Origin: Oscillospiraceae bacterium
GTDB taxonomy: Bacteria; Bacillota; Clostridia; Oscillospirales; UBA929
Assembly (NCBI GenBank): GCA_031549605.1
Contig: JAVBPM010000027.1
Coordinates: forward strand, 1,338 to 65,337
DNA: 64,000 bases
Direction of reading: 5' to 3'
Every line of letters starts with the position of its first letter. The stretch's first letter is position 1. The translations under genes and the position numbers were made by a program. Shown here in pieces: positions 41,284-56,938 of the stretch. The notes under the pieces are model-generated. The model had not been told where the DNA came from, ran no database searches, and saw only the letters and a program-made list of their open reading frames with translations.

Positions 41284-41285
41284 CT

Positions 41286-42327: not shown

Positions 42328-42369
42328 CTGCTTGTACAGTGGAAATTAAGTATATGTTGTAGTGCTGAG

Positions 42370-42939: not shown

Positions 42940-43076
42940 GGTGTTCATCCTTTCTACATATAATCTATTTGTCAAACTGTATCATATATAATTCCTATAG
43001 TCAATATTTACTTCTTTTAATTCATTACTCGACATGACGAAATCCGATATAATCAAACCTCAAGGGGGTGCAGGTG

Positions 43077-43403
43077 ATGTTTGACTATATCGCGTTGGGT
43101 GCTCGTATACGGACAAGTCGGACCAAAGCCGGGATGACGCAAGAGCAGCTTGGCGAGGCGACCGGTTTGTCCACCGCATTTATTGGCCACATTGAGCGCG
43201 GCACACGCAAACTGTCGGTTGAGTCGCTGGTTCAAATTGCCTCCTGTCTATCCGTCAGCGTCGACTATCTGCTACTGGACATGGCGCAGCCGGACAATCT
43301 GTTCAGCACTATATCGGCCAAGCTTGCCGCCACCAGTGCTGAGAAGCAAAAAGCTTTTTTGACCATGGTCAAGGCGATGGCTGAAAAAATTGACGAAATA
43401 TAA
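43077..43403 (+). CDS. XRE-family HTH transcriptional regulator
   Basis: MTQEQLGEATGLSTAFIGHIERGTRKLSVESL, an HTH_3-type motif. Confidence 0.7.
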   Translation: MFDYIALGARIRTSRTKAGMTQEQLGEATGLSTAFIGHIERGTRKLSVESLVQIASCLSVSVDYLLLDMAQPDNLFSTISAKLAATSAEKQKAFLTMVKAMAEKIDEI

Positions 43404-43482
43404 ACCGCCCTTGATGACAATATCATCTTGGGCGGTCTTTGTTACTTAGCTGTCTGTTTAGTAAACAATGGGCACAGGTGAG

Positions 43483-44181
43483 CTATAATGCTCGACGGAG
43501 CGAGAGTGCGTCTGAGAAGCGTTCTTCGGGGCTGGGTTGTACGCAGCGACGGATAATTTTTCCCAGCCGTCCGCGCGCACGCTGCTTGCTGTAATGCTCA
43601 CCGGTTAACATGACATTCATCAGCATGCCCAGCGCATATATGTCCGTCCGCTCGTCGGACTCCTTAAAACCGTATTGTTCCGGCGCAGCATATCCGGCCG
43701 TGCCAAGTAGCTGTGTATCCTTGCTTTGCGCTGGCTTCACCAGTCGACAGGCGTTGAAGTCAATCAGCTTAGTCATGCCGTTACAATCAACCATTACGTT
43801 CTCAGGTTTAATGTCTCGGTGGACGATACCCAGCGAGTGCAGCGCGGACAATGCATCGCAAAGCTGCTTGGACACCTGTCGTGTGCCCCGCTCGGTGTAG
43901 TGGCCCGTCTCCAGCACTTGGGCAACGGTACAGCCGTCTATGTATTCCTCCAGCACGGTAACGATGTTTTCACGCTGCACAACTTCGTAGATGCGCGGCA
44001 GGTGCGGGTGTGTGACGTTCAGTAAATGCCGATAGACTTCAGCGCTGCCCGTGAAGGTGCGCTTGACGATTGGCCAATGCAGCGTCTTGTGGCGAAGTAG
44101 CAGCACTTGAGACGAAGGCGTCTGCTTCAATGCCGTCACAAGCGTATATTGTTTATCTAAGGCGTCATTTAGCCAGTCCAT
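43483..44181 (-). CDS. stand-alone Ser/Thr protein kinase domain protein
   Basis: Start ATG 44181. Hanks motifs HRDIKPENVMV, DFN (DFG-like) and GTAGYAAPE. No sensor or TM region. Confidence 0.8.
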   Translation of the reverse strand: MDWLNDALDKQYTLVTALKQTPSSQVLLLRHKTLHWPIVKRTFTGSAEVYRHLLNVTHPHLPRIYEVVQRENIVTVLEEYIDGCTVAQVLETGHYTERGTRQVSKQLCDALSALHSLGIVHRDIKPENVMVDCNGMTKLIDFNACRLVKPAQSKDTQLLGTAGYAAPEQYGFKESDERTDIYALGMLMNVMLTGEHYSKQRARGRLGKIIRRCVQPSPEERFSDALSLRRAL

Positions 44182-44236
44182 CTTTTCACCCACTGTCGAT
44201 TCATGGTATACTGACATCATACTAGGAGGCGATGTA

Positions 44237-44659
44237 ATGGTCAAGAAGTCAACCGACGATTTGCTGGCAGAGTTGCAGGGGCAAAAACCGCTGGAGGCGT
44301 ACATCGCCGACAACCAGGACGCTTTCTATTCGAAGCAGCTGGCGCAAGTGCTGTGTCAGTTGGTGGAGGAAAAGCAGACAACCAAATATGAGGTCATCAA
44401 ACGTGCTGAGCTGACCGAGGTGTATGGCTATCAAATCTTTGCCGGGAAGCGGCTACCCTCGCGGGATAAGTTGCTCTGTTTGTGCATAGGGCTGGGTCTG
44501 TCAGTCGACGAAACCCAGCAACTGCTGAAGCAGGTGGGCATGGCGCCGTTGTATGCAAAGCTGAAGCGGGATAGTATTATTCTGTATGAGGTTGGCCACG
44601 GGCAGAATGTGGTGGCGATTAATGAGCGGTTGTATCTTGAAAATGAATTAACGTTATAA
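44237..44659 (+). CDS. HTH-domain protein (XRE-like)
   Basis: 140 aa. The segment KRAELTEVYGYQIFAGKRLPSRDKLLCLCIGLGLSVDETQQLL matches a common clostridial HTH family. Divergent from the kinase gene. Confidence 0.55.
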   Translation: MVKKSTDDLLAELQGQKPLEAYIADNQDAFYSKQLAQVLCQLVEEKQTTKYEVIKRAELTEVYGYQIFAGKRLPSRDKLLCLCIGLGLSVDETQQLLKQVGMAPLYAKLKRDSIILYEVGHGQNVVAINERLYLENELTL

Positions 44660-44724
44660 TAAGACTGTGCAAAACAGGCATCTCCCACAAACTGAAGGAG
44701 ATGCCTGTTTTGTTTTATTACCAT

Positions 44725-45453
44725 TTATTCATAGTCTTTAGACTCTACTTCAAAGCGCCTGAGGTCTTCCTGTTCTTCGGCGTCCAGTTGAGCCATTTTA
44801 TTGGAAACAGCTTCCATTCGTCTTCCCACCCGTTCGAATAGTGCAATAATATCATGTTCTTGATTCCTTGCAGCATAGCTATCTTTGTTCTTTTTATACA
44901 TTTCTTTGATAAGCTTCAAGACATCGCCAACGCAACTGTTCAGAGCATAGCCTAATAATAAATCGTTGTTCGCAAGCAAAGTGGCAAATTTGACATCAAT
45001 ATCACCATTGCTTTTGATTCTTGCCGAAGGTACAAATGACGTACTATAAGCGTATATTAGGTCGAAAAGTGCATCAGCAATTTCTTTGTTTTCTAATATT
45101 ACGTCCACCATGTCAAGACGGTGCTCGTTTTCTTTACGATTGACGGTAAGCCAGTTAATGGACTCATTTTTTAGACCTGTTTTGTCGTGTGCCTCAACAT
45201 TTTCAGGGGCAATACCAGTAAACAGCTCATCAATTGAAATGCCAAAAAATTTGGCGATGCAACTGAGATGGTACGCTGTGTACCTTGTGTCTCCATCCAA
45301 CAAGTTGTGGACAGTAGAGGGATCAACGCGTAAGTACGCTGCAAGATTGTTTTGTGCTATTCCGCCCCGTCTTAAATAACTGGATATAGTGTTGCTAATG
45401 GTTTTTTGTATTGCGGTGAGCTTGTCCTCGCGTTCAAGTAGACTGTCTTTCAT
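44725..45453 (-). CDS. XRE-family repressor-like protein
   Basis: N-terminal HTH (IAQNNLAAYLRVDPSTVHNLLDG) and a ~150-aa C-terminal domain. Divergent from the primase module, as for a phage cI. Confidence 0.65.
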   Translation of the reverse strand: MKDSLLEREDKLTAIQKTISNTISSYLRRGGIAQNNLAAYLRVDPSTVHNLLDGDTRYTAYHLSCIAKFFGISIDELFTGIAPENVEAHDKTGLKNESINWLTVNRKENEHRLDMVDVILENKEIADALFDLIYAYSTSFVPSARIKSNGDIDVKFATLLANNDLLLGYALNSCVGDVLKLIKEMYKKNKDSYAARNQEHDIIALFERVGRRMEAVSNKMAQLDAEEQEDLRRFEVESKDYE

Positions 45454-45593
45454 GATGGTTACCTCCTGAATTGTTGATGGTTTATAAATTATTGAGTGTT
45501 ATAAAAATCATATTGTGGTTTTATGACCTAGAGTCAAATGTGTGCTACTCTGCACTTGGTACAGGCAGTATTTATAGTGTTAGGAGGAAGAAG

Positions 45594-45770
45594 ATGGAAA
45601 ACGTTTATTTCTACGATGCAAAGCGCAACTGCGTAATTCCGCAGGTCATTAATCTTGGGGATCTGGGGGAGGATGAAAACCTATGGAAGTGGTTGAGGAT
45701 GGAAAGTGAGGCAATTATCAAGAGAGGCAGCAATGATAGTAATTGTCAGGGTGATTGCCATGAGGCGTGA
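45594..45770 (+). CDS. small hypothetical protein (58 aa)
   Basis: AGGAGG RBS before ATG 45594. Occupies the position of a cro/early gene. Confidence 0.35.
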   Translation: MENVYFYDAKRNCVIPQVINLGDLGEDENLWKWLRMESEAIIKRGSNDSNCQGDCHEA

Positions 45771-47133
45771 GACGTATCAGGATAATCCTGCAGTTTATGT
45801 CACAAAGGATGGGCGGGTTGTAGTTCTGCCACAAGAACGATACAAGCAGATAAAACAGGAGTACGACATCCGCAAATCGGACAAGGCGAACATCTGGGTC
45901 TATGAGAAATCGGGCGTTCATAGACTATATAGCGCATATGAAATGATGGCACTGATAAAAAGTACATTACCAGTAGAGTATCGCAGTGCCCATGATTGGA
46001 AAGCGGTTTACGATGAGTTGTTGACCGACAGGGCAAATGTCTCTGAAAGTGACTTCAATAATGATGAAAATATCGTCAATTTCCGAAACGGGGTTTTGGA
46101 CATTAGCACAGGGCAACTGTCACCCCATAACCCCAAGTACTTATCAACGATTCAGATTCCGTGCAATTACATACCATCCTCAACGTTGCAGGATTGCGCG
46201 ACTTTTAGCGCGTTTCTTGATCATCTCTGCGCCACTGATTGCGTGACAATTACTTTTTTGTTGGAGTTTTTAGGCGCAATTATTTCCAATGCAAAAGGAT
46301 GGCGTTTTAAGAAGATGCTACTGCTAGTCGGGGCAGGAAACACAGGGAAATCGGTTTTCCGAGAATTGGCAATGCATCTTGTGGGTTTGGAAAATTGTGT
46401 TTCTATTGATTTGAAGAAGCTTAATGAACGGTTTGGTACATCGGCACTGTACGGAAAACGTCTTGCTGGTAGTGGAGATATGGCATTTGTTGAATTGCCC
46501 GAGGTCAACATTTTAAAACAGTTGACAGGCGGAGATGAGTTGTTTGCAGAGTACAAGGGAAAAGATAGCTTTACGTTTCGATATGACGGGTTTATTTTTT
46601 GCAACTGCAATAAACTGCCTTACTTTCGATCCGACAGAGGAGCTCATGTTTACGAGCGGTTCTTAGTCGTTTGCTGTTCCAATGTAGTACCAGCGGAAGA
46701 GCGTGATCCCAAACTGCTTGACAAGCTTTTGGCTGAGAAAGACGCTATTGTGAGTGTGGCGATCAAAGAGTTTATGTCTGTCATTCAAAACGGGTACAGG
46801 TTTACCGAAAGTGAGGCTATGCAGATTGGCCGCGACTCGTATGAAATTGAGAACAACAGTCTTTTAACGTTTGTAAATGAGTGCTGCGAGCGGGGAGATA
46901 GTGTCATTAAGCGGTCAGAGTTTGGTAGGTATTACGCTAAATGGTGCAAAGCAAATTTTGTGCAAGCTGAACGGGCACGAGACATCGAACCACAGTTAGT
47001 GAGATTCTTTGGCATACAGTCGCATAAGCGAAATGGATACTATGTCTTCACTGGACTGGAAATTCGGATTGAAGTCGTTGATGAACTTGACGATGTGATG
47101 TATCCGGACAGTACGCGAAATCGTCGTAAATAG
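45733..47133 (+). CDS. phage/plasmid primase, P4-family (D5-like SF3 helicase C-terminal domain)
   Basis: Walker A LLLVGAGNTGKSVF and Walker B-like FIFCNCNKLP. Start at ATG 45733 (AGAGAGG RBS) preferred over 45706. Confidence 0.7.
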   Translation: MIVIVRVIAMRRETYQDNPAVYVTKDGRVVVLPQERYKQIKQEYDIRKSDKANIWVYEKSGVHRLYSAYEMMALIKSTLPVEYRSAHDWKAVYDELLTDRANVSESDFNNDENIVNFRNGVLDISTGQLSPHNPKYLSTIQIPCNYIPSSTLQDCATFSAFLDHLCATDCVTITFLLEFLGAIISNAKGWRFKKMLLLVGAGNTGKSVFRELAMHLVGLENCVSIDLKKLNERFGTSALYGKRLAGSGDMAFVELPEVNILKQLTGGDELFAEYKGKDSFTFRYDGFIFCNCNKLPYFRSDRGAHVYERFLVVCCSNVVPAEERDPKLLDKLLAEKDAIVSVAIKEFMSVIQNGYRFTESEAMQIGRDSYEIENNSLLTFVNECCERGDSVIKRSEFGRYYAKWCKANFVQAERARDIEPQLVRFFGIQSHKRNGYYVFTGLEIRIEVVDELDDVMYPDSTRNRRK

Positions 47134-47291
47134 GCTAGTTCGGGGTGGCAGGGGCAAAGTGGAAACTACTTCTTTAAATAATTGACTTTTAATTGGTGCC
47201 AAGCTTTTATTTCTTTGCCCTCAGAACCCTGTTGCGGCTTGTTGTAGTCATTGGAGTGATAAAGCATTTTTGATAGAAAGGGGGGCAGGTA

Positions 47292-47459
47292 GTGAAAGTG
47301 ATAGTACACAGGTCGGAAAAGCTAGAAGATAGAGATACGCTAACTGAAATAGTTTCGCATATATATGGTTTAGCAATAGCGAATTATTTACATAAGCTGC
47401 CTTGTCCTCTGGATCAAAAGGTAAGTCTGCTAAAGTTGCTGCAGGATAAGCACAGGTGA
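47292..47459 (+). CDS. possible small protein (55 aa)
   Basis: GTG 47292, 6 nt after AAAGGGGGG. VKVIVHRSEKLEDRDTLTEIVSHIYGLAIANYLHKLPCPLDQKVSLLKLLQDKHR reads more protein-like than the track's antisense ORF 47248-47511. Confidence 0.25.
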   Translation: MKVIVHRSEKLEDRDTLTEIVSHIYGLAIANYLHKLPCPLDQKVSLLKLLQDKHR

Positions 47460-47515
47460 AACAGATTGCTCGAAATAAATAACGTCCATCAATTGATGCT
47501 AAAGATAGCACAATA

Positions 47516-47560
47516 AAGTGGGTGTAATACTAAGCTGACAGCTTAGTATTACACCCACTT
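47516..47560. repeat. perfect 22-bp-arm palindrome/hairpin
   Basis: aagtgggtgtaatactaagctg-a-cagcttagtattacacccactt. Sits at the left edge of the AT-rich island. Confidence 0.9.
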
Positions 47561-47618
47561 AGCTTTGCCGATCCATGTGCGATGCCAAATGTTGTCGAAA
47601 TATGAGGAGAAAAAAGTC

Positions 47619-47647
47619 TTTTCATACCGAAATACATCGTATATAAT
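47619..47647 (+). promoter_or_regulatory. candidate outward promoter facing IR-L
   Basis: TTTTCA-17 nt-TATAAT, 76 nt upstream of IR-L. Confidence 0.35.
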
Positions 47648-47722
47648 AAATGGTAATTAGGTTACAGTTCTATGTGCAAAAGGGCTTGTAATTCTGGCAG
47701 TGCAAAATGAAGATTTAAAAGT

Positions 47723-47780
47723 CAATGCAGGATAATACCAGATTATCTATTGTTTACAGGTCAAATAATTTGTAATTATC
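47723..47780 (+). repeat. 58-bp inverted repeat, left copy (IR-L)
   Basis: caatgcaggataataccagattatctattgtttacaggtcaaataatttgtaattatc. Its reverse complement equals 52819-52876 exactly (58/58, checked base by base). Confidence 0.95.
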
Positions 47781-47795
47781 CTTATAAAAGAGAGG

Positions 47796-49475
47796 ATGTT
47801 AAGTTTGATATCACTTGGAATTAACATTGGACATGATCAGGGTGCCGCAGTTGTAAAAGACGGCATTTTGGTTGGGGCAATCGCTCAAGAAAGACTAAAT
47901 AGAGTAAAGCATTCTGCTTCAACAACATTGCCATTTATAGCTATAGATAATCTACTAGATTACTTGGAAATAGGTATTAACGAAGTAGATTGCATTGGGT
48001 TCTCTTCTACTGCTGTTAATATCAATGAATTAAATTCTTATGTTGCTGATAGTCTTACAAACTACTATGATATTAATGATCCACATATCATTCCTGTATC
48101 ACATCATCAAGCTCATGCAGAAAGTGCTTACTTTACTTCAAATTTTGATGAAGCAATAACGCTTATTGCTGATGGTGGCGGTGAAATGTTAGGCGTAAAG
48201 GAAGAAGCAGAAAGCATATTTTACTGCAGAAACGCAGAGGTTACATTAATGGAACAACGTTTGCAAAGTAATAATGTACATGCTTTTGCTCGTCCGCACA
48301 ATTATTTAATCCCGTTTATGAACAAAAAACAATTTAGTGAACAAATTAGCCTTGGTAAAAAATATGAACAGGTAACTAGTTTGCTATCTTTTGGCGCAAA
48401 TGGTGCTGGAAAGACGATGGGCCTTTCAGCCTATGGGAAAAGTTTAATTAGTACAAATGCAGTTCCTGTAACCGATCCATTGGCTTTCAATCTTGATTTT
48501 CAAGATATTTTGCAACCATATTATTCATTGTACGAGCATTCTGGGGAGAATTACTTTGATTTCATGAAAAAGCATCAAGCAGATATAGCGAGGACCTTAC
48601 AAGATTATACAGAAAATCAAGTATTAGAAATCATTGAATACATACTGTCAAAGTACAAAGTATCACAAATCTGTTTAGCCGGAGGGCTGTTTCTCAACTG
48701 TCCTATTAATCACAAAATTTTAGAAAAGTATCCACAAGTGTCATTGCATATCTGTCCTGCTGCAGGTGATGATGGACAGGCAATGGGAACTGCATTAGCA
48801 GCGTATAGAACAGTCTCTTCAGATCTATATCCGAATTCATCCTGCCTACCGTATCTTGGTATAAGTTATACAAATGCTCAAATAGAGCAAGCTATAAAAT
48901 CGCGAGGACTACATTATCACTATTATGATGATGTAAGTATTGCGAGTCTTGTAGCAGAAAAAATATATAATAACAAAATAATCGGATTTTTGCATGGGAG
49001 AAGTGAAATTGGACCAAGGTCATTGTGCCATAGGAGCATACTTGCTAATCCAACTGTACCAAATATGAAAGACTATATCAATGCAAAAGTAAAGCACAGA
49101 GAAAATTTTCGTCCATTTGCACCAGTGGTTGCTGCAGAAAAACAATTTGAATACTTTTCTTTATTACAAGAGTCGCCGTATATGCTCTTGGCAACTACTG
49201 TAAAAGATAAATTTGTAGAACAATTACCTGCAATAACCCACGTGGATGGAACTGCGAGAATTCAATCGGTTAAAGCCGAAGATGATCCATTTGTACACCG
49301 AATACTTATTGAATTTGAAAAACTCTCTGGATTTCCAGTATTACTAAATACTTCATTTAACGATTGTGGAGAGCCTATTGTAGAAACACCAAGTGATGCA
49401 ATAAAAACTTTTCTGACTACAGAAATAGATATTCTTGTTATGGAAAATTATATATTATTTAAAGATGAACAATAA
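47796..49475 (+). CDS. NodU/CmcH/TobZ-family carbamoyltransferase
   Basis: Motifs GINIGHDQGAA, HHQAHAESAYF, ICLAGGLFLNCPINHKI, FRPFAPVV, HVDGTARIQSV and LNTSFNDCGEPIV. The true start may be TTG 47805, because the SD AGAGAGGA abuts ATG 47796. Confidence 0.85.
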   Translation: MLSLISLGINIGHDQGAAVVKDGILVGAIAQERLNRVKHSASTTLPFIAIDNLLDYLEIGINEVDCIGFSSTAVNINELNSYVADSLTNYYDINDPHIIPVSHHQAHAESAYFTSNFDEAITLIADGGGEMLGVKEEAESIFYCRNAEVTLMEQRLQSNNVHAFARPHNYLIPFMNKKQFSEQISLGKKYEQVTSLLSFGANGAGKTMGLSAYGKSLISTNAVPVTDPLAFNLDFQDILQPYYSLYEHSGENYFDFMKKHQADIARTLQDYTENQVLEIIEYILSKYKVSQICLAGGLFLNCPINHKILEKYPQVSLHICPAAGDDGQAMGTALAAYRTVSSDLYPNSSCLPYLGISYTNAQIEQAIKSRGLHYHYYDDVSIASLVAEKIYNNKIIGFLHGRSEIGPRSLCHRSILANPTVPNMKDYINAKVKHRENFRPFAPVVAAEKQFEYFSLLQESPYMLLATTVKDKFVEQLPAITHVDGTARIQSVKAEDDPFVHRILIEFEKLSGFPVLLNTSFNDCGEPIVETPSDAIKTFLTTEIDILVMENYILFKDEQ

Positions 49476-49477
49476 AT

Positions 49478-52400
49478 TTACACACCAAAGGGTATATAAA
49501 AATCGGTAAAAGTATCGCGAACCGAGTATAGAATATCTTTACCTACAAATAACAATCTACCTTTTTTAACTGATTCATAGTTTTTCTTAAATACGTCTAT
49601 ATTTCGCTGGCAAGAGTAGAAGCAAGATTTGTTTTTATCACACTTGAAATCACAAGTCCCATTACTTCCGTAGTATTTAATTTCACTTAGGAACTGATAA
49701 ACTTCACTTTCCAATCCATATTCGCATAGAAAAATAGCATAATTTGTAAGCAAAATAATATTGTTATAAGTAAAATCAAGTGCTCCAAGAAAAAATTGAT
49801 CACACTGTCTCATATGATGAAGCATGGTCTGAAAGTATTTATAAATTGTTTCTGATGATGAACCGTCGCTGGCAGCGATTATTGCACGAAGGCAATATAA
49901 TGACGGCATCATTTTAGCTATCCCGTTTTGTATACTGTCGGATATTCCAGCGTCTATGTGCTTTTTTGCTTGTTCTCTTTCCTCAGTACTGTTTCCAATA
50001 TAATAAATCGCAGCTAAGAGGTAATGACTACGGATAATAGCTATCGGGTACTCTACTTCCATGGCTAATTCAAGAAGTCTTTGCCCTTCATTTTTAAAAT
50101 AATTTAGTTTATCAAATTTAGTAGAATCATTAACTATGTTTGCTGTTAAAATACCAAGATCATTGTGACAACTAATTCTTGGTGATACATCTGATGAAAG
50201 AAGCGCTTTTGCTTCATTCATCAAGGCAAGAGCCTCTTGAAAATCTCTATAAAATCTTATTTTAGCTGATAATATTTTACTTAATGTCAATAACTTTGCA
50301 TCTTGCAACCGTTCAGCAATCTTGTATGAAAGCTGATTATAAAGCATCGCTAATTCCTTATGGTTTTCTTGTATATACACGCTAGAGATCCGGTCAAAAA
50401 GATCAAAACGTGTTTCATCATTAAAAAGAGCTTCATCTTTACGCTCTTGTGCAAGAAGTTCCAACAATAGTTTTTTTGCTTGTGATATACGGTCTGATTG
50501 CATAAACAGATGTGCTTGCATTTGCATAGCTGTTAGATGTAATGGCATATCATTTGCATGATGTTCTTTTATTATTTCTAGTATCTTCTCTATGACAATA
50601 CCACCACGGGCAACAGATAAGCTGTGTAAAGCGATATACATACTAGCTAATAATGTGTTTCTTTGAAGATTCAAGTTATTATTTTTAGAAGCAATTTCAT
50701 AAATAGTCTCGTATGTTTCAAAATATTTAGGAGTTAAATTGCATGAAGAAATATTTTTTATGTTGCTAATTTCAGTAATGGCTATTTGTAATAAACTCTC
50801 GCTTCTGTGAAAGTCGCCAACATGAAAATAAATTACTGCTTTTTGTAAATCAGAATACTGCTCTAATAATTCATTGCAAGAAACAAGGAAATCAGCTACT
50901 TTCTCAATTGTATTTTTAGATTTAAGAATTTCTCTTATAAACAAGAAAATATTTTCATGATCAAAAGTGATGTTATCATTATGAGTTATCTTGAGAAAGT
51001 GCCTTTTGTATAAAATATTAATGGTTTCAAAATTCTCATCCCCAAAATACAAATTATAAATTCGTTTGGGAGCTTCAATTCCATATAAACCGAGTAAAAG
51101 CAAAAATAATTGCAAATCTGTTCCGTTTGTCAAATCTGCAATGTTATCAAATCTTGCTCTTATTAAGTCCTGAACAGAAGAAGGGATGTATAATTTCTTC
51201 GCAAAAGTTGTTACATTAGTTATTCCCACTGCATTTCTGTTCATCAAATACATTAATTTTGTCTCCAACATATATTCTATAAATTGGCACACATAAAATG
51301 GATTGTTTTCAGATGCTTTATGAATCTTATTTATTACATATTCAGGTGCTTCGATAATTATTGACCGAATCATATTTTTACACTCAACATCAGTTAACTT
51401 TTTAATTTTATAGTTATTAATATTTTCGTTTTTCTCGTTTTCTAGCCATGATAAATAAGTAAAATAACTCTGATTGTAAACGCTATAGTCGTCCCGACCT
51501 GCAGTAATAATAATAAAAGGAGTATAGAAATTACTTGTCGAGAATTTCTTCAACAATGAAAAAAGGCTTTTATCTGCATTATGTATATCCTCAATAACAA
51601 TAGCATATCGGTTAAAATGCATTGGAATATTCGTTAAATCTATTAGAGCTCTTAATTTGTATTGCGGGATGCTATCAGCAATATAAGAATTAAGCAGTTC
51701 TTCGGTAGATTTTGTCTCATGTTCCGTGCATATAAAGTGAAATATCTTAATTCCACTTTGAGAAATTTTTTTACTCGCTTCATCTAATATTCTTGTTTTT
51801 CCAATTCCGGCTTCTCCACGAAGGTTAATCATGTGGAAATTAGTATTATTTTGCCCCCTTGAAACAATACTACTTATTATTTCTTTGTGATAAGTGCCTA
51901 CAAGAGGTGTTTCAAAATCATAATCAACAAAACGACCATTGATTATAATTTTTTTTAAATTTTCATTCAGCATAACATCAACTAAAATATCATCAATACC
52001 ATCAAAATATTCTTTTGTTACTCCGATACATTTGCAAATGCTATTGCCAGCATCTAGAAAAACTTCAAACTGTGTTTCAGATAATAGCCAGTTTCGATCA
52101 GATTTAAGTTGGAATTTGCATATTTGGGGATTTTCCGAATAATTGCGAAAACGCAAATATAATTCTAAATATGGCAAACCATTTCTCTTGCCGTGATTAA
52201 GTTGATAATCAGCCGATAGTTCAAAATGTTCTAGAGGCAAAGCATAATTTCCGAAAAGGGCATTATGAAAATCTAAAAACTTTGCTAAAATAAATTGGTC
52301 TACTAGAAAAAATTCATATCCATTTTCTATTGCATTATGGTTGGCTTCGTAATGCGAAAATGGAACGATGGTTTGATTGGTAATTAAAATGAAATAATCA

Positions 52401-52744
52401 ATTCCGCTATGATTTGCAAGAAGTATATTCTTTGAAAACTTGTCAAGACCAATTTTATTATTATTTGAGCTTTTAAATTCTATGTAAATGCAAATACTGC
52501 TTTTACCCTTTAAATCAAACTTTTTGCCAAAAAGAGAAAAAGGTACTATTGATCTAATAATTAAATCCTTACCACTATCCCTTGTGCGAGGGGTTCGTTC
52601 AATTTTTAATTCTTTTTCATAATATTCAGCTAACGAATACTCAATCACTGATGACACATGCTCTTCAAATTCAAAGCCAGACATATTTAGGTCCCACTTT
52701 TGACTATTAATATTCGGCGTAATATAATTAACGCTACCTAGCAT
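49478..52744 (-). CDS. Mrr-like nuclease / STAND P-loop NTPase / TPR-like repeat protein (Avs-like architecture)
   Basis: GAGGGAG RBS. Residues ~20-160 carry a PD-(D/E)xK pattern (GFEFEEHV, DSGKDLII, IYIEFKS, GIDYFILITN). Walker A GEAGIGKT (residues 310-317) and Walker B AIVIEDIH. About 650 aa of helical repeats, then a C-terminal Cys cluster. Confidence 0.8.
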   Translation of the reverse strand: MLGSVNYITPNINSQKWDLNMSGFEFEEHVSSVIEYSLAEYYEKELKIERTPRTRDSGKDLIIRSIVPFSLFGKKFDLKGKSSICIYIEFKSSNNNKIGLDKFSKNILLANHSGIDYFILITNQTIVPFSHYEANHNAIENGYEFFLVDQFILAKFLDFHNALFGNYALPLEHFELSADYQLNHGKRNGLPYLELYLRFRNYSENPQICKFQLKSDRNWLLSETQFEVFLDAGNSICKCIGVTKEYFDGIDDILVDVMLNENLKKIIINGRFVDYDFETPLVGTYHKEIISSIVSRGQNNTNFHMINLRGEAGIGKTRILDEASKKISQSGIKIFHFICTEHETKSTEELLNSYIADSIPQYKLRALIDLTNIPMHFNRYAIVIEDIHNADKSLFSLLKKFSTSNFYTPFIIITAGRDDYSVYNQSYFTYLSWLENEKNENINNYKIKKLTDVECKNMIRSIIIEAPEYVINKIHKASENNPFYVCQFIEYMLETKLMYLMNRNAVGITNVTTFAKKLYIPSSVQDLIRARFDNIADLTNGTDLQLFLLLLGLYGIEAPKRIYNLYFGDENFETINILYKRHFLKITHNDNITFDHENIFLFIREILKSKNTIEKVADFLVSCNELLEQYSDLQKAVIYFHVGDFHRSESLLQIAITEISNIKNISSCNLTPKYFETYETIYEIASKNNNLNLQRNTLLASMYIALHSLSVARGGIVIEKILEIIKEHHANDMPLHLTAMQMQAHLFMQSDRISQAKKLLLELLAQERKDEALFNDETRFDLFDRISSVYIQENHKELAMLYNQLSYKIAERLQDAKLLTLSKILSAKIRFYRDFQEALALMNEAKALLSSDVSPRISCHNDLGILTANIVNDSTKFDKLNYFKNEGQRLLELAMEVEYPIAIIRSHYLLAAIYYIGNSTEEREQAKKHIDAGISDSIQNGIAKMMPSLYCLRAIIAASDGSSSETIYKYFQTMLHHMRQCDQFFLGALDFTYNNIILLTNYAIFLCEYGLESEVYQFLSEIKYYGSNGTCDFKCDKNKSCFYSCQRNIDVFKKNYESVKKGRLLFVGKDILYSVRDTFTDFYIPFGV

Positions 52745-52818
52745 ATAACTCCCTCTTTTTACATTAGTTGCAATAAACAGTTATCCATTATTTACTGTTT
52801 TTTCAATGATAAACAATA

Positions 52819-52876
52819 GATAATTACAAATTATTTGACCTGTAAACAATAGATAATCTGGTATTATCCTGCATTG
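52819..52876 (-). repeat. 58-bp inverted repeat, right copy (IR-R)
   Basis: Exact reverse complement of 47723-47780. Lies 75 bp upstream of the 1088-aa gene start and 44 bp from the recombinase stop. Confidence 0.95.
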
Positions 52877-52920
52877 GCTTAAACGTGAATAGTGACCCCA
52901 TGAATGAGGCCACTACTATT

Positions 52921-53841
52921 TTAAATAACTATTCGATTTCTAGGATGCTTTGTGTCTAATATCTCTTTTTGCTTTTTTAAACTCACATGTGTATATATCT
53001 GTGTCGTGGTAATCGAGCTATGTCCCAGAATTTGTTGTATATACCTGATATCAACACCTTCATCCAGTAATAGAGTTGCAAAAGAATGTCTAAACATATG
53101 TGGGGTTATATTAAGTGCAATTCCAGCTTGATTCGCATACTTTCGTATCATAAACCGTACAGATTGCTCAGATAGCCTGTTATTACAGCGGTTTAAATAA
53201 AATTGCTTTGCATTATTAACGTCTTTTTCTTCTCGAACTATACCATAATTATCTAACGCAGATAAAACCTCATCATTGCCAATTCTGATAATTCTCTCTT
53301 TCGCACCCTTTCCATAGATACAGGCGGTTTTTTCGTGGAAATTAATATCGCAACAATTTAATGAGCACAGCTCGGAAACACGCATGCCCGTTGCAAAGAG
53401 CAGTTCAAGAACGGCAATGTTACGAATTGTCATTCTCTTTTTATAATCTGTAGAACTGATTGACAATTCTGTATATGCGCATCTAAGGATGGCCTCAACA
53501 TCGGTCAATGATATAGTTCGTGGTAAAATCTTAGGCTCCTGAAACTTAGTTCTAACTTTAGCAAAATGGTCTTCATCAATTATATTTTCAAACTGTAAAT
53601 AATTAAAAAAAGCCTTTAGCGAAGCAATTTTGCGTTTAGCGCTTTTAGGCTTGTATTTTGTATGTAATGTAACAATATATGCATTAAGCACTTCTTTCAT
53701 TGAGCTGCTTTCGGACAGTTTTGCGTGCTGCCTAAATTGTTCAAGATCAATTCGGTATGCTTTAATTGTGGGCGCACTCAACTTCTTTTGATTTGCGCAA
53801 AAAGAAAGATAAGGACGGATTAACGATTCAGTAATTATCAC
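52921..53841 (-). CDS. tyrosine site-specific recombinase (XerC/XerD-like)
   Basis: GTG start after GGGGG. Core-binding N-terminal domain (APTIKAYRIDLEQF). Catalytic ATGMRVSEL, HMFRHSFAT and LGHSSITTTQIYTHV (R..HxxR..Y). Confidence 0.85.
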   Translation of the reverse strand: MIITESLIRPYLSFCANQKKLSAPTIKAYRIDLEQFRQHAKLSESSSMKEVLNAYIVTLHTKYKPKSAKRKIASLKAFFNYLQFENIIDEDHFAKVRTKFQEPKILPRTISLTDVEAILRCAYTELSISSTDYKKRMTIRNIAVLELLFATGMRVSELCSLNCCDINFHEKTACIYGKGAKERIIRIGNDEVLSALDNYGIVREEKDVNNAKQFYLNRCNNRLSEQSVRFMIRKYANQAGIALNITPHMFRHSFATLLLDEGVDIRYIQQILGHSSITTTQIYTHVSLKKQKEILDTKHPRNRIVI

Positions 53842-53975
53842 TTAAAAAACCCCCATAAGTATTTTCTGAACCATTATGGAGGAGTTGTCGCATTTTGTCG
53901 ATCACTTACAACTTGAGATTGCGGCATGCCATCCCGAGCGTCGTATGATTCCTCTTTAGGAAAGTCCTACCGCAC

Positions 53976-54004
53976 TTTACTTGTGCTTGTCTATGGTGTA
54001 TAAT
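53976..54004 (+). promoter_or_regulatory. candidate promoter of the AAA ATPase gene
   Basis: TTTACT-17 nt-TATAAT. Confidence 0.4.
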
Positions 54005-54072
54005 AGACATGTTAAATATAAAAAATGCAGAAATTATTACGTTATCTTCTACGTAAAAACGGGAGGTGTCAC

Positions 54073-55374
54073 TTGAAACGCATATTAAGCGACCAGCTAT
54101 TGTCTTGGAAAACGCAGAGCGACCGAAAACCGCTTATTCTAAAAGGCGTACGTCAGTGCGGTAAAACGTATTTGCTCAAGGAGTTTGGTGAGGCGCACTA
54201 CGACGACGTTGCCTACTTTAATTTTGAGGGCAACGACGCCTTGCAAGCGCGGTTTGATGTTGATTTGGATGTTGACCGAATCATTGCTGAACTGGGTATC
54301 CTGCGACGCAAAGCCATCGAGCCGGATAAAACGCTGATTATCTTTGATGAGATTCAGTTTTGTAACCGTGCTTTGACGGCGTTGAAATACTTCTGCGAGA
54401 ACGCGCCACAGTTTCATATTGTCTGTGCCGGGTCTCTTTTGGGCGTGGCGCTTAGTAAGCCGTTGTCATTTCCCGTGGGTAAGGTTGATTTTCTCACATT
54501 GCGGCCGATGAACTTCTATGAGTTTTTGCTGGCAAACGGCGAAGATTTACTGTGTGATTATTTGAACAAGCTAACCACCGGCGAAAAGGTGTCGGCATTG
54601 TTTGCCGAAAAGCTGGAGCAGTTGCTTCGGACGTATTATATCACTGGCGGTATGCCGGAGGCCGTGGATATATGGCTAAAGACGCGTGACATCGGCAAGC
54701 TGGAGGAGGTGCAGCAACGCATCCTTGACAGTTATGAGTTGGACTTTGCTAAGCACGCACCGAGTAAAGACTTCCCGAAACTGTCGGCGATTTGGCGGTC
54801 AATTCCTGAACAATTGGCCAAAGAGAACAGCAAGTTTATTTTCAGTCAGGTCAAGAAAGGCCTCCGCGCCAAAGACTTAGAGGATGCCTTGGAGTGGCTT
54901 CTGAGTGCCGGACTGGCCTTTAAGGTTATGAAAATTGAAAAGCCATTTTTGCCGCTGTCTGCCTATGCTGACGCGACGTTCTTTAAGCTCTACATGTCTG
55001 ACGTGGGCTTGCTTCGAAAGATGTCAAAGCTACCTGCAGAGGCGTTACTGGCGAAGAGTGAGCTATACACTGAGTTCAAGGGCGCATTGGCTGAGAATTA
55101 TGTGCTGACTGAGTTGGTCAACTTGCAGGGCGACACGCCGTATTACTGGAAATCGGGAAATATAGCCGAGGTCGATTTTGTCGTTCAGCAGGACATGGAC
55201 ATCATTCCTATTGAGGTCAAATCCGAGCGGAACGAACGCGCGCGGTCGCTGTCGGAGTATCGGAAAAAGTATAACCCACGTGTGGCGGTGATTACGTCGA
55301 TGAGTAATGTGTCTGGCGGCGAGGTTAGGAATGTGCCGTTGTATATGTTGTGGAGGTTGGTGGCGTATGTATAG
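54073..55374 (+). CDS. AAA-family ATPase with DUF4143-type C-terminal domain
   Basis: TTG 54073, 6 nt after GGGAGG, gives the family-typical N-terminus (L)KRILSDQLLSWKTQSDRKPLILKGVRQCGKTY (Walker A). Walker B LIIFDEIQ. Confidence 0.7.
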   Translation: MKRILSDQLLSWKTQSDRKPLILKGVRQCGKTYLLKEFGEAHYDDVAYFNFEGNDALQARFDVDLDVDRIIAELGILRRKAIEPDKTLIIFDEIQFCNRALTALKYFCENAPQFHIVCAGSLLGVALSKPLSFPVGKVDFLTLRPMNFYEFLLANGEDLLCDYLNKLTTGEKVSALFAEKLEQLLRTYYITGGMPEAVDIWLKTRDIGKLEEVQQRILDSYELDFAKHAPSKDFPKLSAIWRSIPEQLAKENSKFIFSQVKKGLRAKDLEDALEWLLSAGLAFKVMKIEKPFLPLSAYADATFFKLYMSDVGLLRKMSKLPAEALLAKSELYTEFKGALAENYVLTELVNLQGDTPYYWKSGNIAEVDFVVQQDMDIIPIEVKSERNERARSLSEYRKKYNPRVAVITSMSNVSGGEVRNVPLYMLWRLVAYV

Positions 55375-55449
55375 TGGTGGTGGAGATATTAATTGTTGTT
55401 GCCGTCTTTATTTATCGAAAAGATAAAATATGTAGCTGGGGGAAATTAA

Positions 55450-56235
55450 GTGATACGATACAGTAAATGCAAAGAAGCAAGGAAAACAATCGAAGATGTA
55501 TATAATCATCCAGAGAAATATTTAATTATCCATTATTCATGTGAGAGCTTTATGGACAAGCCTGATGGCGGGACACCAAGGATAACCTCAATTGCGGTAA
55601 GATTTTGTAGCACTTCACAGACAAAGTCTTTTTCAATACATAAAATTGCAGAGCAAAAGCATATGGATTGGAATAAACTTCAAGATAATTACGATATTTG
55701 TGAAAGAGAAATGTTGAAGGATTTCTTTAAATTTGTGAGGGAACACAAAACTTTTGTATGGTTACATTGGAACATGAGAGATGAAAATTACGGGTTTTAT
55801 GCCCTTGAAAACAGGTTTAAGGTTCTTGGTGGAACACCAATTTGTGTTGAGGACAACAGTAAAATAGATATCGCAAGATTATTTGTTAAACGATACGGGA
55901 AATACTATATTCAAAATCCGAAAATTGTCAATTTAGTTCAAAAGAACGGTATGTCACACATGGATTTCTTAACAGGACAAGAAGAGGCAGACGCCTTCGT
56001 AAATAGAGAATACATCAAACTTCACAAATCAACATTGAGAAAAGTTGACCTGTTTTCAAATATGCTGATTGCATCTGCAGAGAAGACACTAAAAACCAAT
56101 GCAAAATGGAAAGATATGTATGGTGTTTCCCCTCAGGGGTTGTACCAGGCTGCAAAAGATAATATATGGTATAATATAGCAGTAGGTGTTGTTGTTTTGC
56201 TTCTTGGTGCTATGCTGGGGCAATTATATAACTGA
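55450..56235 (+). CDS. hypothetical protein with a C-terminal TM anchor (261 aa)
   Basis: GTG start after GGGGGA. Soluble ~225-aa domain with no motif I recognise. C-terminal helix YNIAVGVVVLLLGAMLGQLY. Confidence 0.45.
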   Translation: MIRYSKCKEARKTIEDVYNHPEKYLIIHYSCESFMDKPDGGTPRITSIAVRFCSTSQTKSFSIHKIAEQKHMDWNKLQDNYDICEREMLKDFFKFVREHKTFVWLHWNMRDENYGFYALENRFKVLGGTPICVEDNSKIDIARLFVKRYGKYYIQNPKIVNLVQKNGMSHMDFLTGQEEADAFVNREYIKLHKSTLRKVDLFSNMLIASAEKTLKTNAKWKDMYGVSPQGLYQAAKDNIWYNIAVGVVVLLLGAMLGQLYN

Positions 56236-56326
56236 TTTATTACGCATACGCCCATTTTGTTGCTTTCACCTTAAATGAAAAACCCAAATAAGCCAGTTAT
56301 AACACGCTACGTCGAACACAGGCCGT

Positions 56327-56818
56327 TTATATCTCGAGATACTGCCTACTTATCCCAACATAGTTCTCCTTAAGTAATGTAGTGAATCCTGTCTCCCACC
56401 TTTTCACTGTGCCATGATGCACGCCCAAAACTCTGGCCAACGCAGGTCGCGACAGCCTATTAGCCTTCCGCAATTCTCGAATCTGCTCAGCTTGTCCGTC
56501 GTACAGAAACCTATGGTACGAATCGAGTAAATCAACCACAGCCACCCCAAACAACGCCGCAGCAACCCCCAGCTTGTCCAACGGATACACCGAAATACCA
56601 CGCTCCCAACGTAGATAGGTGCCGGTGTCGATACCAATAGCCGCTGCCACATCTACCTGCCTCAACCTACACTGCCTCCGATAATAACGAAGCTTGTCCG
56701 CCACGGACGCATCAGCCTCCGGCACAACCACGACCTCCACAGCGCCGCTGTATTGTTCCTGTTTGATGACATGGACATACAGCGGCGCATATTTTGTTTT
56801 GCCCTTAACCGTACACAT
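56327..56818 (-). CDS. XRE-family regulator with two HTH domains
   Basis: Two HTH_3-like motifs (RLRQVDVAAAIGIDTGTYLRWERG; RLSRPALARVLGVHHGTVKRWETG). The start is uncertain: ATG 56818 or 56911, neither with a clear SD. Confidence 0.55.
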   Translation of the reverse strand: MCTVKGKTKYAPLYVHVIKQEQYSGAVEVVVVPEADASVADKLRYYRRQCRLRQVDVAAAIGIDTGTYLRWERGISVYPLDKLGVAAALFGVAVVDLLDSYHRFLYDGQAEQIRELRKANRLSRPALARVLGVHHGTVKRWETGFTTLLKENYVGISRQYLEI

Positions 56819-56917
56819 ATAAATAGCGAGCGTATTGCTCACCGCCCACGCCAACCGCCACGGCGATAAATGGGGTGCGTGGTGCGCTGTGTCGCGTTCC
56901 AAAGTTCCCATTTTGAT

Positions 56918-56938
56918 AGTATTGCTTTTTCAATACAT
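56918..56938. other. right attachment junction of the sigK intervening element (core TTT 56927-56929)
   Basis: SigK similarity ends after codon GAA (56931-56929). The local dyad gtattg-cttttt-caatac spans the junction. Confidence 0.6.

What the first reader, a model, noticed from the sequence alone, without database searches (positions are those of the whole stretch)
49478..52744. 1088-aa Avs-like STAND protein with an N-terminal Mrr-type nuclease and an unusual C-terminal Cys cluster
**Seen.**
- Residues ~20-160 read GFEFEEHV...TPRTRDSGKDLII...ICIYIEFKSS...GIDYFILITNQT. This is the order and spacing of the Mrr/PD-(D/E)xK restriction-endonuclease core.
- Residues 310-317 are GEAGIGKT and 381-387 are AIVIEDI.
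- The remainder is amphipathic helical repeats.
- The last ~60 residues contain GTCDFKCDKNKSCFYSCQ.

**Established.** Avs proteins combine such nuclease effectors, a STAND ATPase and TPR sensors that bind phage terminase or portal.

**Inference.** This looks like a divergent, very AT-rich member. It sits in a Clostridia skin element, so it would be lost from the mother-cell chromosome on excision.
Basis: partly seen in the sequence, partly recalled or inferred. Interest (0 to 1): 0.7.

Follow-up and report, generated by a model that had tools for sequence, protein, structure and literature searches.

The report
Invertible cassette: immune sensor versus carbamoyltransferase
The 1088-residue protein is a real NLR-like nuclease of the kind bacteria use against phages, but its gene sits tail-to-tail with a carbamoyltransferase gene inside a 5-kb DNA segment that a neighbouring recombinase flips, so a cell probably makes one protein or the other.

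Summary

**Protein.** Structure prediction gives:
- an Mrr-type PD-(D/E)xK nuclease
- a beta-sandwich
- a STAND NTPase with a winged helix
- a TPR-like solenoid
- a Cys4 loop

It resembles Avs in architecture and fold. It matches no Avs1-5 model, so it is not a member of those families.

- The gene and a convergent TobZ/NodU-type O-carbamoyltransferase (47796-49475 +) fill a 5.16-kb segment.
- The segment is bounded by 62-nt inverted repeats (47719-47780 and 52819-52880) with a 17-bp palindromic core, GATAAY-N5-RTTATC.
- A Xer-like tyrosine recombinase gene (52921-53841 -) lies next to it.
- This layout is conserved down to 27% STAND identity.
- In four independent lineages, public assemblies carry the segment in both orientations, with the junctions swapping inside the core.

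**Expression (inferred).** Only one outside flank carries a promoter-like site, and several cassettes have leaders too short to hold a promoter. Orientation therefore probably selects which gene is transcribed. In this window the promoter flank faces the carbamoyltransferase, so the STAND gene is predicted to be off.

**Skin-element claim.** It holds: sigK is split by a ~20.4-kb element that carries a large serine recombinase.

The parts
49478..52744 (-). STAND/NLR-like gene, 1088 aa, intact
   Evidence: ORF; family of full-length homologues; AF2 model with pLDDT 85 and pTM 0.66
52265..52744 (-). Residues 1-160: Mrr-type PD-(D/E)xK nuclease domain (E27, D56/D60, E89-x-K91)
   Evidence: Pfam Mrr_cat in 26 of 38 members; invariant catalytic residues; Foldseek hits to EcoT38I 7e-4, MspJI 2e-3 and the Avs4 nuclease domain 5e-3
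51938..52219 (-). Residues 176-269: eight-stranded beta-sandwich (Ig/MSP-like) with invariant Y180, Q181, W219, D248, G249
   Evidence: N-terminal model with pLDDT 91.9; Foldseek hits to FixG-related 2r39, complement MG and MSP domains
50945..51895 (-). Residues 284-600: STAND NTPase (Walker A GEAGIGKTR, Walker B IVIEDIHN, GRDD) plus helical and winged-helix module
   Evidence: the family profile's best PDB sequence hits are ZAR1, Cdc6 and Sr35
49685..50917 (-). Residues 610-1020: TPR-like alpha-solenoid, presumed sensor
   Evidence: AF2 helices with pLDDT about 90-97; Foldseek hits to TPR proteins and to STAND-TPR 6mfv
49607..49660 (-). Residues 1029-1046: Cys4 loop, C-x3-C-x5-C-x3-C, presumed metal site
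   Evidence: Four Cys conserved in at least 90% of members; pLDDT below 50 in the metal-free model
47796..49475 (+). Convergent O-carbamoyltransferase gene (Kae1-like N domain plus YrdC-like C domain), 2 bp from the STAND stop codon
   Evidence: Pfam Carbam_trans_C 6e-66 and Carbam_trans_N 8e-29; PDB GdmN, TobZ and NovN at about 1e-64; paired with the STAND gene in every complete locus
47719..47780 (.). Left inverted-repeat arm; core GATAATACCAGATTATC at 47731-47747
   Evidence: 62-nt arms, 98% complementary; the core pattern occurs only twice in the window against 0 expected
52819..52880 (.). Right inverted-repeat arm; core at 52852-52868
52921..53841 (-). Xer-like tyrosine recombinase, candidate invertase
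   Evidence: Pfam Phage_integrase 4e-41; below the XerC/XerD cut-offs; 50-56% identical orthologues lie next to the cassette in seven other loci
52888..52917 (-). 13-bp-stem hairpin between the recombinase stop codon and the right repeat (terminator-like insulator)
   Evidence: -18.1 kcal/mol, z -5.2
47619..47647 (+). Candidate fixed promoter TTTTCA-17-TATAAT, 83 nt outside the left core, reading into the cassette
   Evidence: 19 of 500 shuffles score as well, against 348 of 500 for the opposite flank
47516..47560 (.). Perfect 21-bp-stem hairpin that insulates the promoter flank from the upstream primase gene
   Evidence: -35.8 kcal/mol, z -7.9
36565..56928 (.). About 20.4-kb sigK-intervening (skin-like) element that holds the cassette
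   Evidence: sigK N-half 56929-57267 (-) and C-half 36193-36564 (-) rejoin to a 236-aa protein whose best match is SigK; GC about 0.3-0.5 against about 0.6 in the flanks
36560..38296 (-). Large serine recombinase (CcrB/XisF-like), presumed excisase of the skin-like element

Best explanation
The ORF encodes an intact NLR-like STAND NTPase. By analogy with Avs proteins, it should bind a trigger with its TPR-like arm, oligomerise through the NTPase, and switch on its N-terminal Mrr-type nuclease to cut DNA and abort infection. This step is inferred.

The gene is not a stand-alone unit. It forms one half of a conserved, horizontally mobile cassette of about 5.1 kb. The other half is a TobZ/NodU-type O-carbamoyltransferase gene placed tail to tail.

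The cassette is bounded by inverted repeats whose 17-bp palindromic core (GATAAY-N5-RTTATC) is a tyrosine-recombinase site. A dedicated Xer-like recombinase is usually encoded beside it. That the segment inverts in nature, with crossover inside the core, is shown for homologues.

Both genes read inward from the repeats and share a short leader. A promoter sits on only one outside flank, so orientation decides which gene is transcribed. The unterminated convergent layout keeps the other gene silent. The result is an either/or phase switch; this step is inferred from sequence.

In the orientation assembled here, the promoter flank faces the carbamoyltransferase. The STAND gene faces the terminator-insulated recombinase flank and is therefore predicted to be off.

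The whole module lies in a sigK-intervening element.
For: **Protein**
- The catalytic and NTPase residues are invariant.
- The fold is supported.
- The domain matches hold across the family.

**Pairing**
- The carbamoyltransferase is convergent with the STAND gene in the window and in L005-9, L035, L036, L068-73, L078-88 and L089. STAND identity in these loci ranges from 69% down to 27%.
- At least 17 STAND clusters and 17 carbamoyltransferase clusters share identical longest-contig lengths.

**Repeats**
- The window arms are 62 nt long.
- The core sits at both borders in all complete loci and nowhere else in the window.

**Inversion, four independent cases**
- L005 versus L006: the flanks are 99.9% identical but reversed around a 5138-bp segment.
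- L068/71 versus L069/70/72/73: the junctions swap exactly at the core.
- All four junction types exist for the P0019/P0265 cassette.
- L080/81/83/84 versus L082/85: the half-sites segregate, which places the crossover in the central bases.
- Contigs L007, L078, L079 and L088 start and end inside the core.

**Recombinase**
- Orthologues of 50-56% identity lie beside the cassette in 7 further loci.

**Promoter logic**
- One flank beats shuffles in 6 of 8 loci: 0 to 19 of 500 shuffles score as well.
- The opposite flank never does: at least 162 of 500.
- The core-to-start leaders are only 38-46 nt in L080, L086 and L087 and are never promoter-like.
- Hairpins follow the recombinase gene in the window and in L086.

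**Defence context**
- PDC-S01 lies beside the module in the window.
- L035 and L086 carry an AAA_14/DUF4143 gene of the same Pfam architecture in the equivalent position.
- SIR2_2, PIN_12 and PDDEXK_2 are neighbours.
- The STAND gene diverges faster than the carbamoyltransferase or the recombinase.
Against: - No read-level data exist for this strain, so inversion is shown only for homologues.
- The promoters are consensus matches in AT-rich DNA, and two loci (L005, L036) are not significant.
- Some cassettes (L078, L035 on the CT side) have longer leaders with weak promoter-like matches.
- In some loci the recombinase gene abuts the core with no terminator (L080/82). Read-through could then transcribe the 'off' gene.
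- No known defence model matches the protein, and its trigger is unknown.
- The substrate of the carbamoyltransferase is unknown, as is any functional link between it and the STAND protein.
- The L005/L006 locus has no recombinase within 8-10 kb.
Confidence: 0.62

Rival explanations
1. One reading: a stand-alone Avs-type defence gene. The carbamoyltransferase would be an unrelated neighbour and the inversion without consequence.
For: Tripartite architecture with Avs3 and Avs4 among the structural hits. Defence-gene neighbours.
Against: - The pairing, the repeats and the recombinase are conserved across lineages with only 27% STAND identity and in unrelated genomic contexts: a skin element, an ICE, a polysaccharide locus and a predicted viral contig.
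- Neutral neighbours would not persist in this way.
- There is no Avs HMM match.
Confidence: 0.08
2. A two-component system in which both proteins act in the same cell. For example, the carbamoyltransferase might mark a self molecule, or make or remove a ligand read by the STAND sensor. It might also carbamoylate the STAND Cys loop, in the way HypF does for HypE. Inversion would then only tune the ratio of the two proteins, or their joint on/off state.
For: - Co-inheritance is strict.
- The carbamoyltransferase is under stronger constraint than the STAND protein.
- The recombinase flank may allow read-through in some loci.
- L035 carries a PfkB sugar or nucleoside kinase after the carbamoyltransferase gene.
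Against: - Convergent genes with a 2-bp gap, or with overlapping ends, and no terminator suit co-expression poorly.
- A promoter is found on one flank only, and the leaders are too short for private promoters.
- One natural cassette keeps inverting although an IS element separates the two genes.
Confidence: 0.2
3. The repeat-bounded 5-kb unit is a transposable or integrative cassette that inserts in either orientation, not an invertible switch.
For: - It has terminal inverted repeats, very low GC and a patchy distribution across hosts.
- A third, related core marks an island border in L086.
Against: - The unit carries no transposase.
- In four lineages the same two flanks are joined to opposite ends at single-base-identical junctions inside a palindromic core, with no target duplication.
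- The recombinase lies outside the repeats.
Confidence: 0.05
4. A non-defence STAND protein, for example a MalT-like signalling ATPase, whose nuclease-like domain is inactive.
For: The best Foldseek hit is an archaeal STAND-TPR protein (6mfv) and AAA_16 is the commonest Pfam match. A few members hit TPR_MalT.
Against: - There is no HTH or other regulatory output domain.
- The PD-(D/E)xK residues are invariant in 38 divergent members.
- The gene is mobile, lies near defence genes and has a fast-evolving sensor.
Confidence: 0.05

Closest known systems
Avs4 / AVAST type 4 (Gao et al. 2022; PDB 8dgf) and Avs3 (8dgc)
   Same: The domain order matches: an N-terminal PD-(D/E)xK (Mrr-like) nuclease, a STAND NTPase and a C-terminal TPR-like sensor. 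Foldseek hits Avs3 at 9e-9 for the whole protein. It hits the Avs4 nuclease domain at 5e-3.
   Different: - Family HMMs find no similarity and a profile search of PDB chains finds neither protein.
- It is about 1090 aa, against 1500-2000 aa.
- It has an extra beta-sandwich and a Cys4 loop.
- It sits in an invertible cassette with a carbamoyltransferase.
- Its trigger is unknown.
Phage Mu G segment / P1 C segment / e14 P segment (Gin, Cin, Pin)
   Same: An invertible segment of a few kb holds two convergent alternative coding units, bounded by short inverted repeats. The invertase gene lies just outside, and a fixed outside promoter expresses whichever unit faces it.
   Different: - Those systems use serine invertases with an enhancer and Fis.
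- They swap variable C-terminal parts of tail-fibre genes that are fused to a constant part.
- Here a tyrosine recombinase is used.
- The repeats lie upstream of the start codons, and two complete, unrelated genes alternate.
Type I R-M hsdS invertons with an adjacent tyrosine recombinase (e.g. the pneumococcal ivr/SpnD39III locus; PMC7672463, PMC9881135)
   Same: A defence locus is made phase-variable by a Xer-like recombinase acting on inverted repeats, so that subpopulations differ in immunity.
   Different: Those inversions reshuffle domains within one gene family and so change specificity. This one exchanges a whole immune-sensor gene for an enzyme gene.
Clostridioides difficile RecV-controlled switches (flgB, cwpV, cmrRST)
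   Same: The hosts are Firmicutes, the invertase is a Xer-like tyrosine recombinase, and the outcome is on/off heterogeneity.
   Different: Those switches are regulatory elements of 150-300 bp lying between a promoter and a gene. Here the inverted unit is the 5-kb coding cassette itself.
Bacillus subtilis / C. difficile skin element
   Same: It interrupts sigK at the region 2/3 border, and a large serine recombinase gene sits at one end.
   Different: It is about 20 kb with different cargo: a P4-type primase, a Ser/Thr kinase, PDC-S01 and the invertible cassette. Excision was not tested.
TobZ / NodU / CmcH / GdmN O-carbamoyltransferases
   Same: Both Pfam domains score far above their cut-offs. 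Matches to solved structures reach about 1e-64.
   Different: It is not in a natural-product or Nod cluster, and its substrate is unknown. The NodU equivalog score is 155 against a cut-off of 1000.

Membership tests
Avs (antiviral STAND, types 1-5) | Match to the family's profile models | tested here: not met
   PADLOC gives 0 hits for the window protein. Only 1 of 38 family members gives a weak Avs2 hit, 2.6e-4.
Avs (antiviral STAND, types 1-5) | Tripartite layout: N-terminal effector, STAND NTPase, C-terminal repeat sensor | tested here: met
   AF2 model and Foldseek
Avs (antiviral STAND, types 1-5) | Similarity to solved Avs3/Avs4 | tested here: inconclusive
   Fold-level hits: 8dgc at 9e-9 and the 8dgf nuclease domain at 5e-3. 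No sequence-profile hit at E<=10.
Avs (antiviral STAND, types 1-5) | Phage-protein-triggered oligomerisation, DNA cleavage and protection from phage | not testable with these tools
   Needs co-expression toxicity assays, plaque assays and biochemistry
STAND NTPase superfamily | Walker A GxxxxGK[ST], Walker B hhhhD[DE], conserved Arg after strand 4, helical plus winged-helix module after the NTPase | tested here: met
   G310-K316-T317, E385-D386 and R417 are invariant or nearly so. Helical/WH module 452-600. NB-ARC matches 29 of 38 and AAA_16 36 of 38 members.
Mrr-type PD-(D/E)xK nuclease | Pfam Mrr_cat at or above the gathering score; D...(D/E)xK catalytic residues; restriction-endonuclease fold | tested here: met
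   21.3 bits against a cut-off of 21 here, which is marginal, and 26 of 38 members match. D60, E89 and K91 are invariant. EcoT38I, MspJI and Avs4 are fold hits at 7e-4 to 5e-3. Catalysis was not tested.
Site-specific invertible DNA segment (tyrosine-recombinase type) | Inverted repeats with a palindromic core at both borders | tested here: met
Site-specific invertible DNA segment (tyrosine-recombinase type) | Both orientations between the same flanks, junctions within the core | tested here: met
   Four homologous cassettes. Not tested for the window's own strain, for which there is a single assembly.
Site-specific invertible DNA segment (tyrosine-recombinase type) | Cognate recombinase catalyses the inversion | not testable with these tools
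   Only adjacency and conservation of the Xer-like gene are shown
Site-specific invertible DNA segment (tyrosine-recombinase type) | Orientation-dependent expression | tested here: inconclusive
   The promoter signal is one-sided, the leaders are short and hairpins insulate the other flank. No transcript data.
skin (sigK-intervening) element | Interrupts sigK; large serine recombinase at one end | tested here: met
   The rejoined 236-aa protein scores best as SigK, 199.8 bits, which is below the curated cut-off of 252. The recombinase is CcrB/XisF-like.
skin (sigK-intervening) element | Excision in the mother cell during sporulation | not testable with these tools
   Needs sporulating cultures
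NodU/CmcH/TobZ O-carbamoyltransferase (the neighbouring gene) | Carbam_trans_N and Carbam_trans_C domains above their cut-offs | tested here: met
   101.6 and 221.6 bits; PDB GdmN and TobZ at about 1e-64

The most novel reading that the evidence does not exclude
The cassette is a mobile, self-contained bet-hedging device that flips a cell between two different anti-phage states. In one state the carbamoyltransferase chemically alters a surface sugar, nucleotide or nucleic acid. In the other an NLR-like nuclease stands guard.

In the strongest version the two states are coupled. The mark or metabolite made in carbamoyltransferase-ON cells, or carried by phage grown on them, is what the Mrr-type STAND protein detects in sibling cells. 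If so, the two phases of one clone restrict each other's phage, and the two genes can never safely be expressed together.
Probability: 0.15. Interest if true: 0.9.

Novelty: new variant of a known kind. Interest (0 to 1): 0.72.

Why it matters
- **A new way to regulate an immune sensor.** Bacterial NLR-like sensors are usually treated as constitutive single-gene systems. Here a whole family appears to be phase-variable through a dedicated recombinase, always in exchange for the same enzyme. That implies a cost of carrying the sensor, a population-level immune strategy, and a still-unknown role for carbamoylation in phage-host conflict.
- **A blind spot in surveys.** Searches for inversions target either promoters or within-gene shuffling. 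A whole-gene swap in front of a fixed promoter falls between the two.
- **Assembly consequences.** The cassette breaks short-read assemblies at its repeats. Many public contigs are exactly the 5-kb cassette, so the family has probably been under-counted and mis-contextualised.
- **Directly testable.** The prediction can be checked with existing metagenomic reads.

Tried and rejected
- **Single-sequence PDB search of the STAND protein:** no hit.
- **PADLOC on the STAND protein and on the carbamoyltransferase:** nothing.
- **Exact-sequence look-up of the window protein's own contig:** The cluster look-up gave no accession for it either.
- **tblastn against the plasmid and phage collections:** no match.
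- **Pfam on distant relatives that share residues 275-1030 but have other N-termini:** no effector domain was recognised, so effector swapping could not be documented.
- **Literature:** six full-text searches found no paper on this pairing. They covered carbamoyltransferase with phage defence, STAND proteins or invertible DNA; invertons with Avs or NLR proteins; and programmed inversions.
  - The 2026 STAND census (PMC13581612) mentions neither carbamoyl nor inversion, and no supplement is held for it.
  - The programmed-inversion survey PMC9881135 does not cover it.
- **A shufflon reading** was considered because L008 and L086 each have a third core site.
  - The third site in L086 has a different spacer and lies at the island border.
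  - The third site in L008 duplicates a contig end at 100% identity and may be an assembly join.
  - The idea was therefore not adopted.
- **Read-through from the recombinase gene as the main driver** was considered. It is made less likely by hairpins in the window and in L086. It is not excluded for L080/L082.


Full report
**1.

The minus-strand ORF 49478..52744 encodes 1088 aa. All the quoted motifs are at the stated residues.

The family is real and well defined. A homology search found 73 full-length relatives of about 1090 aa, with identities from 69% down to 30%, and none carries a name. A profile search of 1.84 billion representative proteins found 166 clusters with E<1e-30.

In a 38-sequence alignment:
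- The putative nuclease residues E27, D56, G58, D60, E89 and K91 are invariant.
- So are the NTPase residues G310, G313, G315, K316, R318, D386, H388, R417 and D419.
- The four cysteines C1031, C1035, C1041 and C1045 are conserved in at least 90% of members.

**2. What the protein is**

AlphaFold2 with the family alignment gives pLDDT 85 and pTM 0.66. The model shows:
- an alpha/beta domain at 1-160
- a beta-sandwich at 176-269
- a P-loop NTPase at 284-450
- a helical and winged-helix module at 452-600
- an alpha-solenoid at 610-1020
- a low-confidence Cys loop at 1029-1046

Foldseek against the PDB puts these first: a STAND-TPR protein (6mfv, 5e-12), SAMD9, Avs3 (8dgc, 9e-9), many plant NLRs and Apaf-1.

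A separate model of residues 1-275 has pLDDT 91.9.
- Its nuclease part hits EcoT38I (7e-4), MspJI (2e-3) and the nuclease domain of Avs4 (8dgf, 5e-3).
- Its second domain hits Ig/MSP-like sandwiches.

Pfam results across the family:
- Mrr_cat matches 26 of 38 members. In this protein it scores 21.3 bits against a cut-off of 21.
- AAA_16 matches 36 of 38.
- NB-ARC matches 29 of 38.

The tests for Avs membership fail:
- No PADLOC model matches the window protein.
- Only one of 38 relatives gives a weak Avs2 hit.
- The family profile finds neither Avs3 nor Avs4 among PDB chains at E<=10. Its best sequence hits there are ZAR1 and Cdc6.

The protein is therefore an NLR-like STAND nuclease that probably works like an Avs protein. 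It is not a member of Avs1-5.

**3. The gene is half of an invertible cassette**

*Layout in the window.*
- A 559-aa carbamoyltransferase gene (47796-49475, +) ends 2 bp from the STAND stop codon.
- The pair is flanked by 62-nt inverted repeats that are 98% complementary, at 47719-47780 and 52819-52880.
- A Xer-like tyrosine recombinase gene (52921-53841, -) lies just outside the right arm.

*Conservation of the layout.*
- The same tail-to-tail pair recurs in every complete homologous locus fetched: L005-9, L035, L036, L068-73, L078-88 and L089. STAND identity in these loci falls to 27%.
- The exceptions are L001-4. There an IS-type insertion follows the STAND gene, and the carbamoyltransferase of that cassette lies on separate contigs, L074-77.
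- Every pair carries a 17-bp palindromic core, GATAAY-N5-RTTATC, at both borders.
- In the window the core occurs only at the two borders, even with three mismatches allowed.

**4. The segment inverts in nature**

There are four independent cases.
- **(i) L005 versus L006.** These come from two Hadza gut metagenomes. The flanks are 99.9% identical but reversed around a 5138-bp segment, and the breakpoints lie within the repeats.
- **(ii) A mouse-gut Lachnospiraceae cassette.** Two assemblies carry one orientation and four carry the other. The outside sequences swap exactly at the core.
- **(iii) The P0019/P0265 cassette.** All four possible junctions were recovered:
  - the recombinase flank joined to the STAND gene and to the carbamoyltransferase gene
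  - the HD-kinase flank joined to each of the two genes
- **(iv) The P0068 cassette.** It occurs in both orientations between DUF4432 and the recombinase gene. Its half-sites differ, and the inner half travels with the gene while the outer half stays with the flank. This places the crossover in the central bases, as expected for a tyrosine recombinase.

Contigs L007, L078, L079 and L088 begin and end inside the core. Many family contigs are 5.0-5.3 kb long. Both facts fit assembly breaks caused by mixed orientations.

**5. The likely expression logic (inferred)**

- Both genes read inward from the repeats.
- Scoring 150 nt outside each core, one flank beats composition-matched shuffles in six of eight loci:

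| Locus | Shuffles scoring as well |
|---|---|
| window | 19 of 500 |
| L035 | 4 of 500 |
| L068 | 9 of 500 |
| L080 | 0 of 500 |
| L087 | 8 of 500 |
| L001 | 2 of 500 |

- The opposite flank never beats the shuffles: at least 162 of 500 score as well.
- In L080, L086 and L087 only 38-46 nt separate the start of the core from either start codon. No internal leader is promoter-like. Transcription must therefore enter from outside.
- In the window the candidate promoter is TTTTCA-17-TATAAT at 47619-47647. A 21-bp-stem hairpin lies upstream of it, and the promoter faces the carbamoyltransferase gene.
- The STAND side is separated from the recombinase gene by a 13-bp-stem hairpin.
- The genes are convergent with no terminator between them, so transcription of one should interfere with the other.

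The most economical reading is an either/or switch. As assembled, this genome is in the state 'carbamoyltransferase on, STAND off'.

**6. The partner gene and the context**

*The carbamoyltransferase.* It has both Pfam domains well above their cut-offs. It matches GdmN, TobZ and NovN at about 1e-64. Its substrate cannot be inferred. One cassette (L035) adds a PfkB kinase gene after it.

*Rates of divergence.*

| Gene | Identity range across loci |
|---|---|
| carbamoyltransferase | 45-77% |
| recombinase | 50-56% |
| STAND | 27-69% |

The STAND protein is the fastest-evolving of the three, as expected for an immune sensor.

*Neighbours.* These include PDC-S01 in the window. AAA_14/DUF4143 genes of the same Pfam architecture flank the module in L035 and L086. 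Further neighbours are SIR2_2, PIN_12 and PDDEXK_2.

*Genomic settings.* The cassette is found in an ICE, a polysaccharide locus and a predicted viral contig.

**7. The skin-element claim**

- sigK is split. The N-half (56929-57267, -) ends at ...CRCIE, and the C-half (36193-36564, -) begins NEFRMQ.
- The rejoined 236-aa protein scores best as SigK.
- A CcrB/XisF-like large serine recombinase gene ends at the left border.
- The intervening element is about 20.4 kb long.
- GC content is nested: about 0.60 in the chromosome, about 0.41-0.50 in most of the element, and 0.28-0.37 from 47.4 to 53.9 kb. This suggests that the cassette and its recombinase gene arrived as a unit.

**8. Novelty**

Six full-text searches and two targeted papers gave no description of this pairing or of its inversion.

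The logic resembles the Mu G segment and the Type I R-M invertons. It differs in swapping two complete, unrelated genes and in using a tyrosine recombinase.

**Shown and inferred**

| Status | Item |
|---|---|
| Shown | The ORF, the conservation, the folds, the gene pairing, the repeats, and inversion in homologues |
| Inferred | The promoter toggle, the defence role, and Avs-like activation |
| Unknown | The trigger, the carbamoyl acceptor, and the role of the Cys4 loop |

Noticed in passing
window 54025-55374 (+); L035 7226-8485; L086 7090-8301: An AAA_14/DUF4143 ATPase gene lies next to the recombinase-plus-cassette module in three unrelated loci. The window copy matches PADLOC candidate PDC-S01 at 1e-173. 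It may travel with the module.
   Followed up: partly
L086 14990-17244 and core at 17309: A PIN_12-SIR2_2 operon reads directly into the cassette, and the SIR2_2 stop codon lies inside the core. A third, related core with a different spacer lies upstream of the operon, at the border of the low-GC island. It could be an att-like remnant or a second invertible unit.
   Followed up: partly
L008 1-406 versus 12217-12622; cores at 3, 5127 and 12604: A 406-nt inverted copy, 100% identical, of the STAND leader and first 110 codons lies 12 kb away beside a third core. It is either a real third recombination site or an assembly join caused by the inversion.
   Followed up: partly
L035 13265-14311 (-): A PfkB-family sugar or nucleoside kinase gene sits inside the cassette, downstream of the carbamoyltransferase gene. 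This hints that the acceptor is a sugar or a nucleoside.
   Followed up: no
L001 13262-13962; L074 9671-11743: In one mouse-gut lineage, IS fragments are inserted between the two genes. They are an IS3-like remnant and Transposase_mut (IS256-type) pieces. The cassette is still found in both orientations.
   Followed up: partly
L005 9478-9602 versus 15091-15215: A second inverted repeat of 126 nt and 91% identity lies outside the cassette repeats on both flanks. Its function is unknown.
   Followed up: no
window 38721-47133: The rest of the skin-like element encodes several zinc-ribbon membrane proteins, a Ser/Thr kinase (43483-44313), HTH regulators and a P4-type primase (45706-47133). This suggests a degraded satellite or prophage origin.
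   Followed up: partly
window 55450-56235 (+): A 261-aa protein gives a weak match to the exonuclease domain of family-B DNA polymerases and has a hydrophobic C-terminus. It lies between PDC-S01 and the element border and has no defence-database match.
   Followed up: no
L009 13830-13850: The carbamoyltransferase of the UMGS1266 MAG aligns as two segments in different frames. This is either a frameshift or a sequencing error.
   Followed up: no
window 47516-47560: A perfect palindrome of 22-nt arms around a single base lies between the primase gene and the cassette promoter flank (-35.8 kcal/mol). It is probably a bidirectional terminator.
   Followed up: yes
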